Origin: a virus
Lineage: Duplodnaviria; Caudoviricetes
Direction: 5' to 3' (one strand)
Virus record (IMG/VR): IMGVR_UViG_2865859272_000007
Span: 1-64,000 of that record
Length of the DNA stretch: 64,000 bases
The translations under genes and the position numbers were made by a program. The notes below the pieces were generated by a model. It saw only the letters and a program-made list of their open reading frames with translations, made no database searches and was not told the DNA's origin. Shown one piece after another: positions 580 to 39,422 of the stretch; the stretch's first letter is position 1, and the number at the start of each line of letters is the position of its first letter.

Positions 580-702
580 ATGTCCGCCCCCGCGACCGCT
601 CCGCCAACACCGAACAGCATCCGCCGTATCGTCGCCGCGAGTCTCATCGGCACCACCATCGAGTGGTACGACTTCTTCCTTGTGGGGTCTGACCTGCGAT
701 GA
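580..702 (+). pseudogene. MHS-family MFS transporter, 5' fragment interrupted by prophage
   Basis: ATG 580 after an aggaag RBS; RRIVAASLIGTTIEWYDFFL is the typical TM1 of MHS transporters; homology ends after FFL and a stop follows (VGSDLR*). Confidence 0.85.
661..700. other. Probable attL junction (crossover near 680/681)
   Basis: Host MFS coding sequence ends at ...gacttcttcct| and phage-like DNA follows. Confidence 0.7.
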
Positions 703-780: not shown

Positions 781-855
781 GCCCCTGTGGCCAAATCTGG
801 CAAAGGCGCCCGATTCAAGATCGGGAGACTGGCGGTTCGAGTCCGCTCAGGGGTA
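781..855 (+). tRNA. tRNA-Leu(CAA) with short variable loop
   Basis: Acceptor gcccctg/caggggt, D stem gcc/ggc, anticodon arm cccga-ttCAAga-tcggg, 5-nt variable loop, T arm ggcgg-ttcgagt-ccgct, A73. Confidence 0.9.
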
Positions 856-1027
856 CCGGCGCACGTGGTCCCGACCGGGAGGAGCCCGGAGGGCCGGGAT
901 GCCCGACGGCCTGGAGCCCCAAGCGGGGGCCGGACTACCCGAGACCGTCGCACACCCCGGCAACAGCGAGCGCAAGCACCGCCCCGCACGAGTTCGCGAG
1001 TCGTACGGAGGGTGCGACTCCCCCGAA

Positions 1028-6578: not shown

Positions 6579-6767
6579 GTGGCGAACGAGGACAAGTTCA
6601 TGCGGCCTGCGGAGGCGGCTCGGCTCTTTGGTGTCGACACGAGGACGATTATGCGCTGGTCTGCGGCGGGGAAGCTTCGCAGCGTCCAGACCCTTGGCGG
6701 TCACCGGCGTTACTTCCGGGAAGAAGTGATGCGGCTGTGGGGCGAGATGAACGGAGACGCGACATGA
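6579..6767 (+). CDS. BldC-like MerR/excisionase-family HTH protein
   Basis: RPAEAARLFGVDTRTIMRWSAAGKLRSVQTLGGHRRY. Confidence 0.85.
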   Translation: MANEDKFMRPAEAARLFGVDTRTIMRWSAAGKLRSVQTLGGHRRYFREEVMRLWGEMNGDAT

Positions 6768-8319: not shown

Positions 8320-8541
8320 ATGACCGACGAGACGACCGCCACCCAGCGCCGGGTCCGCAAGCCGGACCCGCTGAGCCGCTACCGGAAGGCGCGGGCGAAG
8401 GCGGACAAGGCGCGGGCCGCGTACGAGAAGGTGCAGGTGCTGGCCGCGGCCCTGCATGATGCGGAGGCGGAGGAGAGGGCGGCGTACGACGCCCTCTCGG
8501 ACGAGCTCGGTGAGCTCGGCTTCGTGGACGGCGACGAATAG
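8320..8541 (+). CDS. Small coiled-coil hypothetical protein
   Basis: ggag RBS, helical Ala/Arg/Glu composition. Confidence 0.6.
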   Translation: MTDETTATQRRVRKPDPLSRYRKARAKADKARAAYEKVQVLAAALHDAEAEERAAYDALSDELGELGFVDGDE

Positions 8542-8546
8542 CCCCC

Positions 8547-8575
8547 TTGACAGCCCCGACCGAATGGGGCATTCT
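8547..8575 (+). promoter_or_regulatory. Sigma70/HrdB-type promoter for the ncRNA array
   Basis: TTGACA-17 nt-CATTCT; implied start near 8582-8584 coincides with unit 1. Confidence 0.6.
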
Positions 8576-8583
8576 TGGACATC

Positions 8584-8663
8584 GCAACCAGTTGCGAAGG
8601 TGCCGGTTACTTCATTTTGCTGAAGATGAAACCGTACCGTTGCCGATCTTGTTCCCTGGTTGC
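8584..8663 (+). ncRNA. Y-RNA-like unit 1 (short)
   Basis: Closing stem gcaaccag/ctggttgc; gcgaagg...ggttacttc motif; helix with a single bulged C. Confidence 0.65.
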
Positions 8664-8673
8664 GCATGGCTTT

Positions 8674-8813
8674 GATGCCAGTTGCGCAGGAGACGGTTAC
8701 TTCCACTGTTAATGGAGTGGTCGCGGGTTCGAGTCCCGTCGCCAGCCCCTGGTTGGCGTAGCTCAGTTGGTAGAGCACTTACGTTACCGTCGCCGCCCTG
8801 GTTCTCTGGCATC
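8674..8813 (+). ncRNA. YrlA-like Y RNA containing a circularly permuted tRNA-Asn(GUU) module
   Basis: Closing stem gatgccag/ctggcatc; inside, anticodon arm (ctGTTaa), T arm (ttcgagt), acceptor stem closed by a ccctg loop, D arm (gctc-agttggta-gagc). Confidence 0.85.
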
Positions 8814-8826
8814 AACCTCTTCTGGT

Positions 8827-8896
8827 TCGCGCTGCGAAGGCAGCCGGGTACTTCTTTGGGTGAAATATCCCCGGCAAGCCGCACCTGTTCTCGCGA
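8827..8896 (+). ncRNA. Y-RNA-like unit 3 (short)
   Basis: Closing stem tcgcg/cgcga; gcgaagg...gggtacttc motif; gccggg/cccggc helix; ends cctgttctc. Confidence 0.6.
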
Positions 8897-8909
8897 CCCC
8901 CCTCTTCTC

Positions 8910-8936
8910 AAGGGCGCCCCCCGTCGGGCGCCCTTT
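8910..8936 (+). terminator. Intrinsic terminator after the Y RNA array
   Basis: aagggcgccc/gggcgccctt stem with a short T tail. Confidence 0.65.
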
Positions 8937-8969
8937 CTGCTGCGCCCCTGCCCGTAAAGGAACCCCCGC

Positions 8970-10523
8970 ATGTCCCGATTCAACCACCGTGGCGCCAAGG
9001 CCGCCGGACAGTCCCCGATCACAACCACCACCCAGGCCCTCACCCACGAGGGCGGCAGCGGCTACCACCGCGACGAAAAGTCCGAGCTGTTCCTCCTCGC
9101 CGTAGCAAACCTCGTCAGCCAGGACGCCTTCTACGAGACCGGCGGCGAGCGGGACAACCGATACCAGCAGCTCATCCGCCACCTCGCCGTCACCGACCCC
9201 GACTGGACCGTGTCGCTGCTGACCTGGCTCCGTAGCAGCGCCGGCATGCGCACCGCCTCCCTGATCGGAGCGGCCGAGTACGTCAAGGCGCGTCTCGACA
9301 AGGGCATCCACGGCGACAACCGGCAGATCATCGACATGGTGTGCAAGCGGCCTGACGAGCCCGGCGAACTCCTCGCCTACTGGCACTCCCGGTACGGGCG
9401 GGCCCTGCCGATGCCGGTGAAGCGCGGCCTCGCCGACGCCGTCCAGCGTCTGTACGGAGAACGATCGCTGCTGAAGTACGACACCGCGTCCCACGCCTAC
9501 CGCTTCGCCGACGTCATCGAGCTCGTCCACCCGACACCGAAGGCGCCGTGGCAGAGCGATCTGTTCCGGTACGCCATCGACCGCCGCCACAAGCGGGAGG
9601 ATCCGCCGCCCGAGTCGCTGGAGATGATCCGGCACAACGCCTGGCTCCGCGACAAGGCCGGCGAGGAGCCGGAGATCGCCCTCAATGCCACTCACCTCGC
9701 CCAGGCGGGTATGACGTGGGAGGACGCCCTGTCCGCGGTCGGCTCGAAGGTCGACAAGGCCGCCCTGTGGGAGGCCATGATCCCGTCGATGGGGTACATG
9801 GCGCTGCTGCGGAACCTGCGGAACTTCGACGAGGCCGGCGTCAGTGACACGGTCGCCGCCGGGGTCGCTGCGCGCATCGGTGACCCGGGCGAGGTGGAGC
9901 GGTCGCAGCAGTTTCCGATGCGGTTCTTGTCGGCGTACCGTGCGGCGCCTTCGCTGCGCTGGTCGTGGGCGTTGGAGAAGGCGTTGAACCTGTCGCTGGC
10001 GAATGTGCCCCGGCTTCGCGGCCGGACTCTCGTCCTGGTCGACCGGTCGGCTTCGATGTTCTGGGCGCAGTCGAAGCAGTCGCAGCTCACCTTCGCTGAC
10101 ACGGCCGCGGTGTTCGGTACTGCGGTGGCGGTGCGGGCCGAGAACGCGACGCTCGTCCAGTACGGCAGCCTCAGCGAGGAGATCACCCTGCCGCGCGGGA
10201 TATCGGTGCTGAAGGCGATCGAGCGATACAGGAACATGGGCGGCACGAACACCGTCGAGGCGGTGCGGCAGCACTTCCAGGGCCATGACCGTGTCGTCAT
10301 CGTCACCGACGAGCAGGCGTACCCCTCCTACTACGGCAGTGTCGATGACGTTCTGCCGGACAGCGTGCCGCTGTACACCTGGAACCTCGCCGGCTACCGG
10401 GTGGGGCACGGCCGTTCGGGCAGCGGGAACCGGTACACGTTCGGTGGGCTGTCGGATGCGGCGTTCCGCATGATTCCGCTGTTGGAGGCCGGGCGTAACG
10501 CCGACTGGCCGTGGGTGGGGTGA
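8970..10523 (+). CDS. rsr: Ro60-related TROVE-domain protein with C-terminal vWA (Rsr)
   Basis: HEGGSGY...ELFLL, MGYMALLRNLRN, vWA LVLVDRSASM, GGT, VIVTDEQ, WNLAGY. Confidence 0.92.
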   Translation: MSRFNHRGAKAAGQSPITTTTQALTHEGGSGYHRDEKSELFLLAVANLVSQDAFYETGGERDNRYQQLIRHLAVTDPDWTVSLLTWLRSSAGMRTASLIGAAEYVKARLDKGIHGDNRQIIDMVCKRPDEPGELLAYWHSRYGRALPMPVKRGLADAVQRLYGERSLLKYDTASHAYRFADVIELVHPTPKAPWQSDLFRYAIDRRHKREDPPPESLEMIRHNAWLRDKAGEEPEIALNATHLAQAGMTWEDALSAVGSKVDKAALWEAMIPSMGYMALLRNLRNFDEAGVSDTVAAGVAARIGDPGEVERSQQFPMRFLSAYRAAPSLRWSWALEKALNLSLANVPRLRGRTLVLVDRSASMFWAQSKQSQLTFADTAAVFGTAVAVRAENATLVQYGSLSEEITLPRGISVLKAIERYRNMGGTNTVEAVRQHFQGHDRVVIVTDEQAYPSYYGSVDDVLPDSVPLYTWNLAGYRVGHGRSGSGNRYTFGGLSDAAFRMIPLLEAGRNADWPWVG

Positions 10524-10535
10524 CACCAAAAGACC

Positions 10536-10569
10536 GGGGTGGGGCGCTAGTGGCTGGGCGCCCCACCCC
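10536..10569 (+). terminator. Hairpin after rsr
   Basis: ggggtggggcgc/gcgccccacccc 12-bp stem. Confidence 0.6.
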
Positions 10570-39348: not shown

Positions 39349-39422
39349 CGCGGGGTAGTTCAGCTCGGTAGAACGCCAGGGTCATGACCTGGATGCCGCC
39401 GGTTCAAATCCGGCCCCCGCTA
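39349..39422 (+). tRNA. tRNA-Met(CAT), initiator-like, atypical anticodon arm
   Basis: 5' CGCGGGG with C1:U72 mismatch; D gttc/gaac; ccagg-gtCATga-cctgg; T gccgg-ttcaaat-ccggc; CCA not encoded. Confidence 0.85.

What the first reader, a model, noticed from the sequence alone, without database searches (positions are those of the whole stretch)
8547..10569. Prophage-encoded Ro60 ribonucleoprotein system: three tandem Y-RNA-like units plus rsr
Seen in sequence: a TTGACA-17-CATTCT promoter, then three related units, each closed by its own stem (gcaaccag/ctggttgc 8584-8663; gatgccag/ctggcatc 8674-8813; tcgcg/cgcga 8827-8896). All three share 5' GCG(A/C)AGG...GG(T/G)TACTTC and 3' TG(G)TTC(C/T)C, and unit 1 has a helix with a single bulged C. 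A terminator, the TROVE-vWA gene and a second hairpin follow. Established: bacterial Ro60 (Rsr) binds Y RNAs encoded next to it, and some (YrlA) are tRNA mimics. Inference: a polycistronic precursor is cut into three Y RNAs that share a Ro-binding helix but carry different effector loops, giving a phage-borne multi-guide Ro60 system. Possible roles are RNA repair, decay, or decoying of tRNA-targeting defences. No RtcB is seen in this window.
Basis: partly seen in the sequence, partly recalled or inferred. Interest (0 to 1): 0.9.

Follow-up and report, generated by a model that had tools for sequence, protein, structure and literature searches.

The report
Prophage Ro60 with three Y RNAs
A prophage in an actinobacterial genome, probably Streptomyces, carries a gene for the ring-shaped RNA-binding protein Ro60 preceded by three small partner RNAs; this is a real, well-conserved locus, but it belongs to a kind already described in bacteria and phages.

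Summary
Window 8547-10569 holds a promoter-like site, three tandem structured RNA units, a terminator hairpin, a TROVE+vWA (Ro60/Rsr) gene and a second hairpin.

- **Middle unit:** it is a YrlA-type Y RNA with a permuted tRNA-like domain.
- **Outer units:** they are short hairpin Y RNAs carrying the same "handle".
- **Handle model:** I built it from 29 short units (27 from other loci plus window units 1 and 3). It hits only these three sites in the window and in the 7-Mb genome. It gives 136 same-strand hits in 63 of 64 actinobacterial and phage rsr loci, 1-5 per locus.
- **Covariation:** it supports the fold strongly (12 of 17 pairs compensatory in short units, 28 of 40 in YrlA-type units).
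- **Closest relatives:** two Streptomyces loci keep the same order, promoter hexamers and terminator.
- **Prophage:** the element is about 79 kb, inserted in an MFS transporter gene, and carries the host's only rsr.

The class is already known. Chen et al. 2014 found YrlA in 254 bacteria and 22 phages, and showed M. smegmatis YrlA and YrlB coming from one precursor. Thermus phage phiLo Ro60 with two upstream Y-like RNAs was described in 2025. This scan has also noted many tandem Y-RNA/Ro60 loci on other DNA. Verdict: a new member of a known kind, of modest interest. The decoy and "multi-guide" ideas remain speculation.

The parts
667..680 (.). attL core (TACGACTTCTTCCT) of the roughly 79-kb prophage. 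The same 14 bases recur at contig C189:118610-118623, about 79.5 kb in window terms, beyond the window end.
   Evidence: The repeat splits an MFS-type ORF..IEWYDFFL lies on the left and YDFFLYGSAAALVF.. on the right. A tyrosine integrase ORF (L070 14379-15437, minus strand) lies next to attR.
8547..8575 (+). Promoter-like site: TTGACA (8547-8552), 17-nt spacer, CATTCT (8570-8575). The expected start is 1-3 nt before the unit 1 stem.
   Evidence: Read. L028 and L029 keep TTGACG, a 17-nt spacer and CATTCT, while the spacer sequences differ. The generic scan did not report it because only 3 of 6 bases match the -10 consensus.
8583..8664 (+). Y RNA unit 1: a short hairpin Y RNA. It has a closing stem, an internal loop with UGCGAA, an upper stem, UACUUC, and an 8-bp apical hairpin with a GCUG loop.
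   Evidence: CM R1 64.8 bits, E 4e-13. It folds alone at -29.6 kcal/mol, z -4.35. Positional orthologs are L028 2127-2198 and L029 2146-2218, whose closing-stem sequences differ but still pair.
8672..8815 (+). Y RNA unit 2: a YrlA-type Y RNA. The handle carries a permuted tRNA-like domain: V/anticodon-like arm 8701-8717, T arm 8723-8739, 7-bp acceptor-like stem-loop 8740-8758, D arm 8761-8776.
   Evidence: Rfam YrlA RF02553 at 8693-8799, 45.4 bits, E 7.4e-9, below the gathering score of 69. CM R1 50.9 bits although it was not in the seed. RNAalifold on 24 homologs recovers every arm, with 28 of 40 pairs compensatory.
8825..8898 (+). Y RNA unit 3: a short hairpin Y RNA with the same handle.
   Evidence: CM R1 50.6 bits, E 9e-10. 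Orthologs are L028 2365-2434 and L029 2375-2447. Its fold alone is not better than shuffles (z -0.04), so the support is comparative.
8910..8940 (+). Intrinsic-terminator-like hairpin (10-bp GC stem) followed by UUUCU, lying between the RNA array and rsr.
   Evidence: -21.2 kcal/mol, z -3.84. L028 and L029 have hairpins at the same place with different, compensating stem sequences and U tracts.
8970..10523 (+). rsr: a Ro60 homolog of 517 aa (TROVE + vWA, with a DRSAS...GGT...TDEQ MIDAS-like motif).
   Evidence: Pfam TROVE 2.8e-18 and VWA_2 0.0021. PHROG 850 RNA-binding protein 3.2e-53 over residues 17-514. The best solved relative is Thermus phage phiLo Ro60 (9KOP/9L5Y), E 1e-31 over residues 21-509. 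Translation.
10536..10569 (+). Strong GC hairpin after the rsr stop codon. It is probably the end of the transcription unit; no U tract follows.
   Evidence: -32.2 kcal/mol, z -3.84.

Best explanation
This is a Ro60 (Rsr)-Y RNA ribonucleoprotein locus carried in the early, DNA-metabolism region of an integrated prophage of about 79 kb.

A dedicated promoter drives a transcript of about 350 nt that contains three Y RNAs and ends at an intrinsic terminator. Read-through of that terminator most likely supplies the rsr mRNA, because only about 30 nt separate the terminator from the rsr start codon.

The precursor is inferred to be cut in its 9-12-nt spacers and trimmed back to the closing stems. 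This would yield two short hairpin Y RNAs and one YrlA-type Y RNA.

All three present the same handle to Rsr:
- a closing stem;
- an asymmetric internal loop, with 5' UGCG(A/C)A opposite 3' GA..G(A/U)UC;
- an upper stem;
- the motif UACUUC.

Their different apical modules are inferred to tether Rsr to different partners. By analogy with D. radiodurans, Salmonella and Thermus phage phiLo, the main partner would be the host exoribonuclease PNPase, and the effect would be a change in how structured RNAs are degraded.

Unit 2 has a 7-bp acceptor-like stem followed by CCC. Like M. smegmatis YrlA, it may therefore be cut by RNase P and receive a CCA tail.

Shown here: the sequence features, their conservation and covariation, the homology of the protein, and the prophage context. 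Inferred: transcription, processing, Rsr binding and the PNPase partnership.
For: **Protein.** TROVE 2.8e-18. PHROG 850 matches along the full length. The best solved relative is phiLo Ro60, E 1e-31, with the MIDAS residues aligned.

**RNAs.**
- Unit 2 matches Rfam YrlA at E 7.4e-9.
- The handle CM hits only the three units in the window and in the genome.
- It gives 136 hits, all on the rsr strand, in 63 of 64 rsr loci.

**Structure.**
- In short units, 88.5% of cells pair, against 30-54% when partners are slid. The covariation score is 0.415 against less than 0.1, and 12 of 17 pairs carry compensatory changes.
- In YrlA-type units, RNAalifold recovers the closing, upper, V, T, acceptor-like and D helices, with 28 of 40 pairs compensatory.

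**Single transcription unit.**
- The promoter hexamers and their spacing are conserved in L028 and L029 over divergent spacers.
- The terminator hairpin is conserved with compensating changes.

**Host partners.** The host has PNPase and RtcB elsewhere and no other TROVE gene.

**Precedent.**
- M. smegmatis YrlA and YrlB lie upstream of rsr and come from one precursor. That YrlA is cut by RNase P and gains a CCA tail (PMC4201824).
- phiLo Ro60 binds two upstream Y-like RNAs and host PNPase (PMC12135203).
Against: - There are no expression, processing or binding data for this locus.
- Unit 2 scores below Rfam's gathering threshold (45.4 against 69). A comparable score (40.7 bits) arose elsewhere in this genome from two adjacent tRNA-Asn genes, so the Rfam score alone is weak evidence.
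- The generic scan called neither the promoter nor the terminator.
- Unit 3 alone folds no better than shuffled sequence.
- The window's handle is a divergent variant (UUGCG and GUUC where most loci have GUGCG and GAUC).
- The pairing inside the internal loop could not be resolved.
- A terminator between the RNAs and rsr could mean that the two are expressed separately.
Confidence: 0.8

Rival explanations
1. Lysogenic-conversion cassette (moron). The locus has its own promoter and terminators and is expressed from the resident prophage. It gives a host that lacks rsr the Ro60/Y RNA stress functions (survival after UV or oxidative stress, rRNA decay in starvation), rather than serving lytic growth.
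For: A self-contained unit with a sigma-70-like promoter and hairpins after the RNAs and after rsr. The prophage carries the genome's only TROVE gene. rsr is a patchy accessory gene in the genus, found in 39 of 80 sampled genomes, and chromosomal Streptomyces loci have similar three-RNA arrays (L030-L034).
Against: It sits on the same strand among early replication and recombination genes: exonuclease, endonuclease VII, polymerase exonuclease subunit and primase. Lytic phages (BRock, VanLee, phiLo, mycobacteriophages) carry the same kind of locus. There are no expression data.
Confidence: 0.3
2. One long multi-domain RNA, not three separate Y RNAs. The transcript of about 315 nt stays intact and scaffolds up to three Rsr rings into a higher-order particle.
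For: One promoter, one terminator and spacers of only 9-12 nt. phiLo Ro60 forms 2:2 and higher-order complexes with its Y-like RNAs.
Against: In M. smegmatis and D. radiodurans, Y RNAs made as polycistronic precursors accumulate as separate species. Each unit has its own closing stem with independent covariation. The number and order of units vary freely between loci, from 1 to 5.
Confidence: 0.12
3. Decoy against tRNA-targeting defences. The tRNA-like domain of unit 2, with its anticodon-like loop CUGUUAA, soaks up host anticodon nucleases or other tRNA-directed effectors during infection.
For: Unit 2 has a 5-7-5 anticodon-like arm plus T, acceptor-like and D arms. In larger phages the same RNAs sit inside tRNA gene arrays.
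Against: Positions 34-35 of the loop vary freely among homologs (GU, GG, AU, CA, CU, GC, GA and others), whereas U36-A37-A38 are mostly kept (23 of 36 arms). No tRNA identity is therefore conserved. Chromosomal, non-phage rsr loci carry the same RNAs. The two short units have no tRNA-like part. I found no published evidence for this role.
Confidence: 0.08
4. Chance hairpins or decayed tRNA fragments with no function.
For: Unit 3 alone folds no better than shuffles. The Rfam YrlA model can be fooled by tandem tRNAs.
Against: There are only three hits in 7 Mb, all beside rsr. The strand bias is 136 to 0 across 64 loci. Compensatory changes are extensive.
Confidence: 0.01

Closest known systems
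Mycobacterium smegmatis rsr locus with YrlA and YrlB (Chen et al. 2014, PMC4201824)
   Same: An actinobacterial Ro60 gene is preceded on the same strand by a tRNA-like YrlA and a short Y RNA made from one precursor. That YrlA has a 7-bp acceptor-like stem, is cut by RNase P and gains CCA. Unit 2 here has the same 7-bp stem followed by CCC.
   Different: This locus has three RNAs (short, YrlA, short) rather than two. It lies on a prophage rather than in the chromosome, and a conserved terminator separates the RNAs from rsr. I did not have the M. smegmatis sequences, so direct homology of the short units to YrlB is untested.
Thermus phage phiLo Ro60 with Yrl1 and Yrl2 (NAR 2025, PMC12135203; PDB 9KOP, 9L5Y)
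   Same: A phage-encoded Ro60 with Y-like RNAs just upstream. A CGAA-containing internal loop lies between a terminal stem and an upper stem. The host lacks its own Ro60 but has PNPase. It is the closest solved relative of this protein (E 1e-31).
   Different: phiLo is a lytic thermophilic phage with two RNAs and no reported tRNA-like domain. This element is a temperate actinobacterial phage with three RNAs, one of them YrlA-type. Binding and PNPase effects were shown for phiLo only.
Salmonella rsr-yrlBA-rtcBA operon (Chen et al. 2013/2014; Hughes et al. 2020, PMC7790460)
   Same: Ro60 with one tRNA-like Y RNA (YrlA) and one short Y RNA (YrlB), both carrying a shared 5' motif.
   Different: In Salmonella the locus is linked to the RtcB/RtcA RNA repair genes and controlled by RtcR and sigma-54. 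Here there is no linked RtcB (the host copy is on another contig) and the promoter is sigma-70-like.
Deinococcus radiodurans Rsr with Yrn1 and Yrn2 (the RYPER complex with PNPase)
   Same: Several Y RNAs lie upstream of rsr and are made as a polycistronic precursor. The Y RNA tethers Rsr to PNPase.
   Different: Chen et al. regard the Yrn1 tRNA-like module as having a different orientation and an independent origin. There was no phmmer match between this protein and D. radiodurans Rsr at E 0.01 or better.

Membership tests
Ro60 / Rsr (TROVE + vWA ring protein) | TROVE domain above Pfam's curated cut-off | tested here: met
   PF05731, 66.8 bits against a cut-off of 23, E 2.8e-18. The match covers only profile positions 277-351.
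Ro60 / Rsr (TROVE + vWA ring protein) | Full-length similarity to a Ro60 whose ring structure has been solved | tested here: met
   phiLo Ro60 9KOP/9L5Y, E 1e-31, aligned over residues 21-211 and 240-509. PHROG 850 matches residues 17-514.
Ro60 / Rsr (TROVE + vWA ring protein) | C-terminal vWA domain with a MIDAS motif (DxSxS ... T ... D) | tested here: met
   DRSAS, GGT and TDEQ align with DVSGS, GGT and TDEQ of phiLo Ro60. Pfam VWA_2 reaches only 19.1 bits, below its cut-off of 27.
Ro60 / Rsr (TROVE + vWA ring protein) | Closed HEAT-repeat ring fold; binds Y RNA on its outer surface | not tested
   No structure prediction was run. Binding needs experiments.
YrlA (tRNA-like bacterial Y RNA; Chen et al. 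2014; Rfam RF02553), for unit 2 | Encoded within 4 kb of rsr on the same strand | tested here: met
   Unit 2 ends 155 nt upstream of the rsr start codon, on the same strand.
YrlA (tRNA-like bacterial Y RNA; Chen et al. 2014; Rfam RF02553), for unit 2 | V, T, acceptor-like (AS) and D stem-loops in that order, with tRNA-like T and D loops | tested here: met
   The Rfam alignment shows T, AS and D. RNAalifold on 24 homologs recovers V, T (5 bp plus a 7-nt UUCGAGU loop), AS (7-8 bp) and D (GCUC/GAGC). G15 and C48 are present, read.
YrlA (tRNA-like bacterial Y RNA; Chen et al. 2014; Rfam RF02553), for unit 2 | Score at or above Rfam's gathering threshold (a curators' cut-off, not a biological property) | tested here: not met
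   45.4 bits against 69, E 7.4e-9. All related phage loci also score 36-49 bits, so this lineage sits below the cut-off as a group. A 40.7-bit false hit on tandem tRNAs shows that the score alone is not enough.
YrlA (tRNA-like bacterial Y RNA; Chen et al. 2014; Rfam RF02553), for unit 2 | 5' motif GNCGAAN0-1G, the proposed Rsr contact | tested here: inconclusive
   Unit 2 has UGCGCAGG. Units 1 and 3 have UGCGAAGG, which keeps the CGAA core. The family consensus here is GGUGCG(C/A)AGG. This is close to the published motif but not a literal match.
YrlA (tRNA-like bacterial Y RNA; Chen et al. 2014; Rfam RF02553), for unit 2 | Bound by Rsr; modified by TruB and DusA; cut by RNase P | not testable with these tools
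   These need experiments.
Short hairpin Y RNAs (YrlB / Yrn2 / Yrl2 type), for units 1 and 3 | 5' and 3' ends pair in a long stem that holds the Ro motif in an internal loop; encoded beside rsr | tested here: met
   The closing stem pairs in 97.7% of cells with 6 of 8 pairs compensatory. The upper stem pairs in 80.5% with 6 of 9 compensatory.
Short hairpin Y RNAs (YrlB / Yrn2 / Yrl2 type), for units 1 and 3 | Small pyrimidine-rich apical loop | tested here: inconclusive
   The unit 1 loop is GCUG on an 8-bp U/A-rich stem. The unit 3 apex is UUUGGGU. Family consensus is UUC-uuu...aaa-GAA.
Short hairpin Y RNAs (YrlB / Yrn2 / Yrl2 type), for units 1 and 3 | Sequence homology to an experimentally defined YrlB | not tested
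   No reference sequence of M. smegmatis or Salmonella YrlB was available through the tools.
Metazoan Y RNA (Rfam Y_RNA) | Match to the family covariance model | tested here: not met
   No Y_RNA match at E 10 or better in 8400-9100. My impression that the handle resembles the vertebrate Ro-binding helix is from memory only.

The most novel reading that the evidence does not exclude
The short handle-bearing RNAs (units 1 and 3 and their roughly 60 relatives found here) may form a widespread actinobacterial and actinophage Y RNA family that neither Rfam nor the papers I could read describe. They would be built as YrlA minus its T, acceptor-like and D arms. On that reading, arrays of 1-5 interchangeable "handle plus cargo" RNAs programme one Ro60 ring for different partners. 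On this prophage the array would act during infection to redirect or blunt host PNPase or other RNA-processing enzymes, as a counter-defence or takeover device rather than for housekeeping RNA quality control.
Probability: 0.15. Interest if true: 0.6.

Novelty: new member of a known kind. Interest (0 to 1): 0.3.

Why it matters
The result adds a temperate actinobacterial (probably Streptomyces) prophage to the known range of Ro60-Y RNA systems. It also shows that a tandem array of Y RNAs with a common, covarying handle is the usual layout in actinobacterial and actinophage rsr loci.

Two practical gains follow:
- The handle covariance model finds short Y RNAs that Rfam misses. It also picks up unannotated ones in cultured phages such as BRock and VanLee.
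- This lysogen's only rsr is prophage-borne. Deleting one locus would therefore show cleanly whether a phage Ro60 particle serves the lysogen (stress survival) or the phage (infection). That question remains open for phage Ro60 proteins.

Tried and rejected
1. **Rfam at gathering thresholds.** Over the whole window it found only two tRNAs. The YrlA match appears only in E-value mode.
2. **A second "YrlA" hit in the genome** (C161, 40.7 bits). It is two adjacent tRNA-Asn genes, so I rejected it as a false positive.
3. **Generic promoter and terminator scan.** It returned nothing. I relied on conservation instead.
4. **The GCCCC...GGGGC hairpin inside the promoter spacer as a terminator of the upstream ORF** (z -2.6). 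I rejected this because L029 has no such hairpin, while the two hexamers and the 17-nt spacing are kept.
5. **A vertebrate-like pairing of the internal loop** (GGU[G]CG with UUG-AUC). I rejected it because the 3' positions vary (GAUC, GAAC, GACC, UUUC, GUUC) while the 5' partners stay fixed. The loop's internal pairing remains unresolved.
6. **tRNA-Leu (781-857) as the attachment site.** No repeat of it occurs at the other end. The att core lies instead inside an MFS gene.
7. **tRNA-Asn identity of the unit 2 anticodon-like loop.** It is not conserved among homologs.
8. **Literature gaps.** The supplements of Chen et al. 2014 and the 2020 Annual Review (PMC10870794) were not available. I therefore could not check whether Streptomyces loci or short Y RNAs are listed there.
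Full report
**What is in the sequence**

- TTGACA (8547-8552), a 17-nt spacer, then CATTCT (8570-8575).
- Three units, each closed by its own terminal stem: 8584-8663, 8674-8813 and 8827-8896.
- A GC hairpin at 8910-8935 followed by UUUCU.
- A 517-codon ORF at 8970-10523.
- A strong hairpin at 10536-10569.

The three units share a 5' block, (U/C)UGCG(A/C)AGG-N-CGG-N-UACUUC, and a 3' block, CCG-N-CUKGUUCYC. Units 1 and 2 fold better than shuffled sequence on their own (z -4.35 and -3.22). Unit 3 does not (z -0.04). The two hairpins are very stable (-21.2 and -32.2 kcal/mol). A generic sigma-70 and terminator scan reported nothing here.

**The protein**

The ORF matches Pfam TROVE (2.8e-18) and, weakly, VWA_2. 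It matches the PHROG "RNA-binding protein" family 850 along its whole length (3.2e-53).

Its closest solved relative is the Ro60 of Thermus phage phiLo (9KOP/9L5Y), at E 1e-31 over residues 21-509. The vWA MIDAS residues (DRSAS, GGT, TDEQ) align. Annotated actinophages call their homologs "Ro-like RNA binding protein". I take it to be a Ro60/Rsr ortholog of the actinobacterial and phage branch.

**The middle RNA**

In E-value mode, Rfam's YrlA model matches 8693-8799 at 45.4 bits, E 7.4e-9. That is below the gathering score of 69, which is why the whole-window scan missed it.

The score alone is not decisive. A 40.7-bit "YrlA" hit elsewhere in this genome proved to be two adjacent tRNA-Asn genes.

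The architecture is decisive. Within one stem-closed unit the order is:
- anticodon-like/V arm, 8701-8717;
- T arm with loop UUCGAGU, 8723-8739;
- a 7-bp acceptor-like stem closed by CCCUG, 8740-8758;
- a canonical D arm, 8761-8776.

I aligned 24 homologous units from phage and actinobacterial loci and gave RNAalifold no prior structure. It recovered the closing stem, upper stem, V, T, acceptor-like and D helices. Of the 40 predicted pairs, 28 show compensatory changes. This is the published YrlA design (PMC4201824).

**The outer RNAs and the shared handle**

I fetched 24 viral contigs and 41 actinobacterial genome loci that encode relatives of the protein, at 45-71% identity.

A simple 5'-motif pattern occurs 110 times on the rsr strand and 9 times on the other strand in 493 kb. 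The same-strand hits cluster in the few hundred bases upstream of rsr.

I aligned 29 short units. They support a two-helix handle around an asymmetric internal loop:
- Closing stem: 97.7% of cells paired, 6 of 8 pairs with compensatory changes.
- Upper stem: 80.5% paired, 6 of 9 pairs compensatory.
- Overall: 88.5% paired against 30-54% when partners are slid by 1-3 columns.
- Covariation score: 0.415 against less than 0.1; no shuffle out of 500 reached it.
- A third, apical helix (UUC.../...GAA) has moderate support.

I built a covariance model from this alignment.
- In the window it finds exactly three sites: 8585-8662, 8675-8812 and 8825-8898. The middle one was not in the seed and is matched across a 69-nt insertion. 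The next best match scores 11.9 bits.
- It finds nothing else in the 7-Mb genome.
- Across 64 loci it gives 136 hits, all on the rsr strand, in 63 loci, 1-5 per locus.
- Cultured phages BRock (Streptomyces) and VanLee (Gordonia) each have two unannotated hits just upstream of their Ro genes.

The pairing inside the internal loop could not be settled. A vertebrate-like bulged-helix register is not supported, because the 3' positions vary while their proposed partners do not. The single bulged C in unit 1 belongs to one minimum-energy fold only.

**One transcription unit, conserved in related elements**

Two Streptomyces loci with 71%-identical Rsr are L028 (Streptomyces sp. NPDC015131) and L029 (S. 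roseolus). Both have the same order: short, YrlA-type, short.

Both keep TTGACG, a 17-nt spacer and CATTCT upstream, with unrelated spacer sequence. Both have a 9- or 10-bp terminator hairpin with compensating stem changes and a U tract between unit 3 and rsr. L028 also shares flanking phage genes with the window.

Other Streptomyces loci (L030-L034), where only rsr itself matches the window in L030 and L031, carry three units in a different order: YrlA-type, short, YrlA-type.

The expected transcription start lies 1-3 nt before the unit 1 stem. Only about 30 nt separate the terminator from the rsr start codon. rsr is therefore probably expressed by terminator read-through. This is inference.

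**Context**

The window lies in a prophage.
- Terminase, portal, major capsid and tape-measure genes lie at 39.6-59.2 kb.
- Exonuclease, endonuclease VII, polymerase-exonuclease and primase genes flank the locus.
- A 14-base core (TACGACTTCTTCCT) at 667-680 recurs 78.8 kb to the right, beside a tyrosine-integrase ORF.
- The two copies split an MFS-type ORF, which reads ..IEWYDFFL on the left and YDFFLYGSAAALVF.. on the right.

The host has no other TROVE gene. It does have PNPase, and RtcB on another contig. TROVE genes occur in 39 of 80 sampled genomes of the same genus, so rsr is a patchy accessory gene there.

**How it most likely works**

By homology with characterised systems, the three RNAs bind Rsr through the common handle and use their different apical parts to recruit partners.
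- In D. radiodurans and Salmonella, the Y RNA tethers Rsr to PNPase.
- In M. smegmatis, YrlA and YrlB lie upstream of rsr and come from one precursor. That YrlA has a 7-bp acceptor stem, is cut by RNase P and gains CCA.
- In Thermus phage phiLo, the phage Ro60 binds two upstream Y-like RNAs and host PNPase, and attenuates PNPase activity.

Unit 2 here has the same 7-bp stem followed by CCC, so the M. smegmatis processing is plausible. None of this is shown for this locus.

Whether the locus serves the phage during infection or the lysogen is open. Its self-contained promoter and terminators, and the host's lack of rsr, fit a moron. Its place among early genes, and its presence in lytic phages, fit an infection role.

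The decoy idea is weak. Across homologs the anticodon-like loop reads CUNNUAA with free NN, so no tRNA identity is conserved.

**Comparison with what is known, and novelty**

Chen et al. 2014 reported YrlA-like RNAs next to Ro60 in 254 bacteria and 22 phages. They found at least two Y RNAs in each species studied and polycistronic precursors. The phiLo paper (2025) describes a phage Ro60 with two upstream Y-like RNAs. Earlier notes of this scan also record many tandem Y-RNA/Ro60 loci on other DNA; I treat those as leads only.

What this locus adds is incremental:
- a temperate actinobacterial (probably Streptomyces) prophage;
- three RNAs in a conserved order;
- a terminator between the RNAs and rsr;
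- a handle model that captures short Y RNAs absent from Rfam.

I file it as a new member of a known kind, with interest about 0.3.

**Limits**

- There are no transcript or binding data.
- The supplements of Chen et al. and the 2020 Annual Review were not available. I could not check whether these loci or short Y RNAs were already listed.
- I had no reference sequence for M. smegmatis YrlB.
- I did not predict the protein structure.

Noticed in passing
window 667-680, and contig C189:118610-118623 (L070 15497-15510): The prophage is inserted inside an MFS-type transporter gene with a 14-bp att core. The adjacent recombinase (L070 14379-15437, minus strand) matches the tyrosine-integrase family PF00589, not a serine recombinase.
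   Followed up: partly
G000 contig C161:14032-14144 (L027 1501-1613): The Rfam YrlA model gives a 40.7-bit match spanning the T arm of one tRNA-Asn(GTT) gene and the D arm of the next. Tandem tRNA genes can therefore mimic YrlA at sub-threshold scores.
   Followed up: yes
window 8701-8717: The V arm of unit 2 is a 5-bp stem with a 7-nt loop, CUGUUAA, shaped like a tRNA-Asn anticodon arm. In 36 homologs with such an arm, U36-A37-A38 are mostly kept (23 of 36) while positions 34-35 vary, so the Asn-like triplet appears incidental.
   Followed up: yes
window 781-857 and 39349-39422: Two phage-borne tRNA genes: Leu-CAA about 100 nt inside attL, and Met-CAT just upstream of the large terminase gene.
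   Followed up: no
L073 894-1084 (Streptomyces phage BRock) and L072 1127-1658 (Gordonia phage VanLee): Each of these cultured phages has two handle-model hits in unannotated DNA just upstream of its Ro-like gene, next to annotated tRNA genes.
   Followed up: partly
L019 4925-5355, L020 4843-4914, L022 6063-6148: In a few viral contigs the handle-bearing RNAs lie downstream of rsr rather than upstream, still on the same strand.
   Followed up: no
window 6579-6767: A small ORF upstream of the exonuclease gene is conserved in L028 and L029 by tblastx (about 59-61% identity).
   Followed up: no
same-genus genomes G001-G080: TROVE genes are found in 39 of 80 sampled genomes of the genus, and seven of those have two copies.
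   Followed up: no
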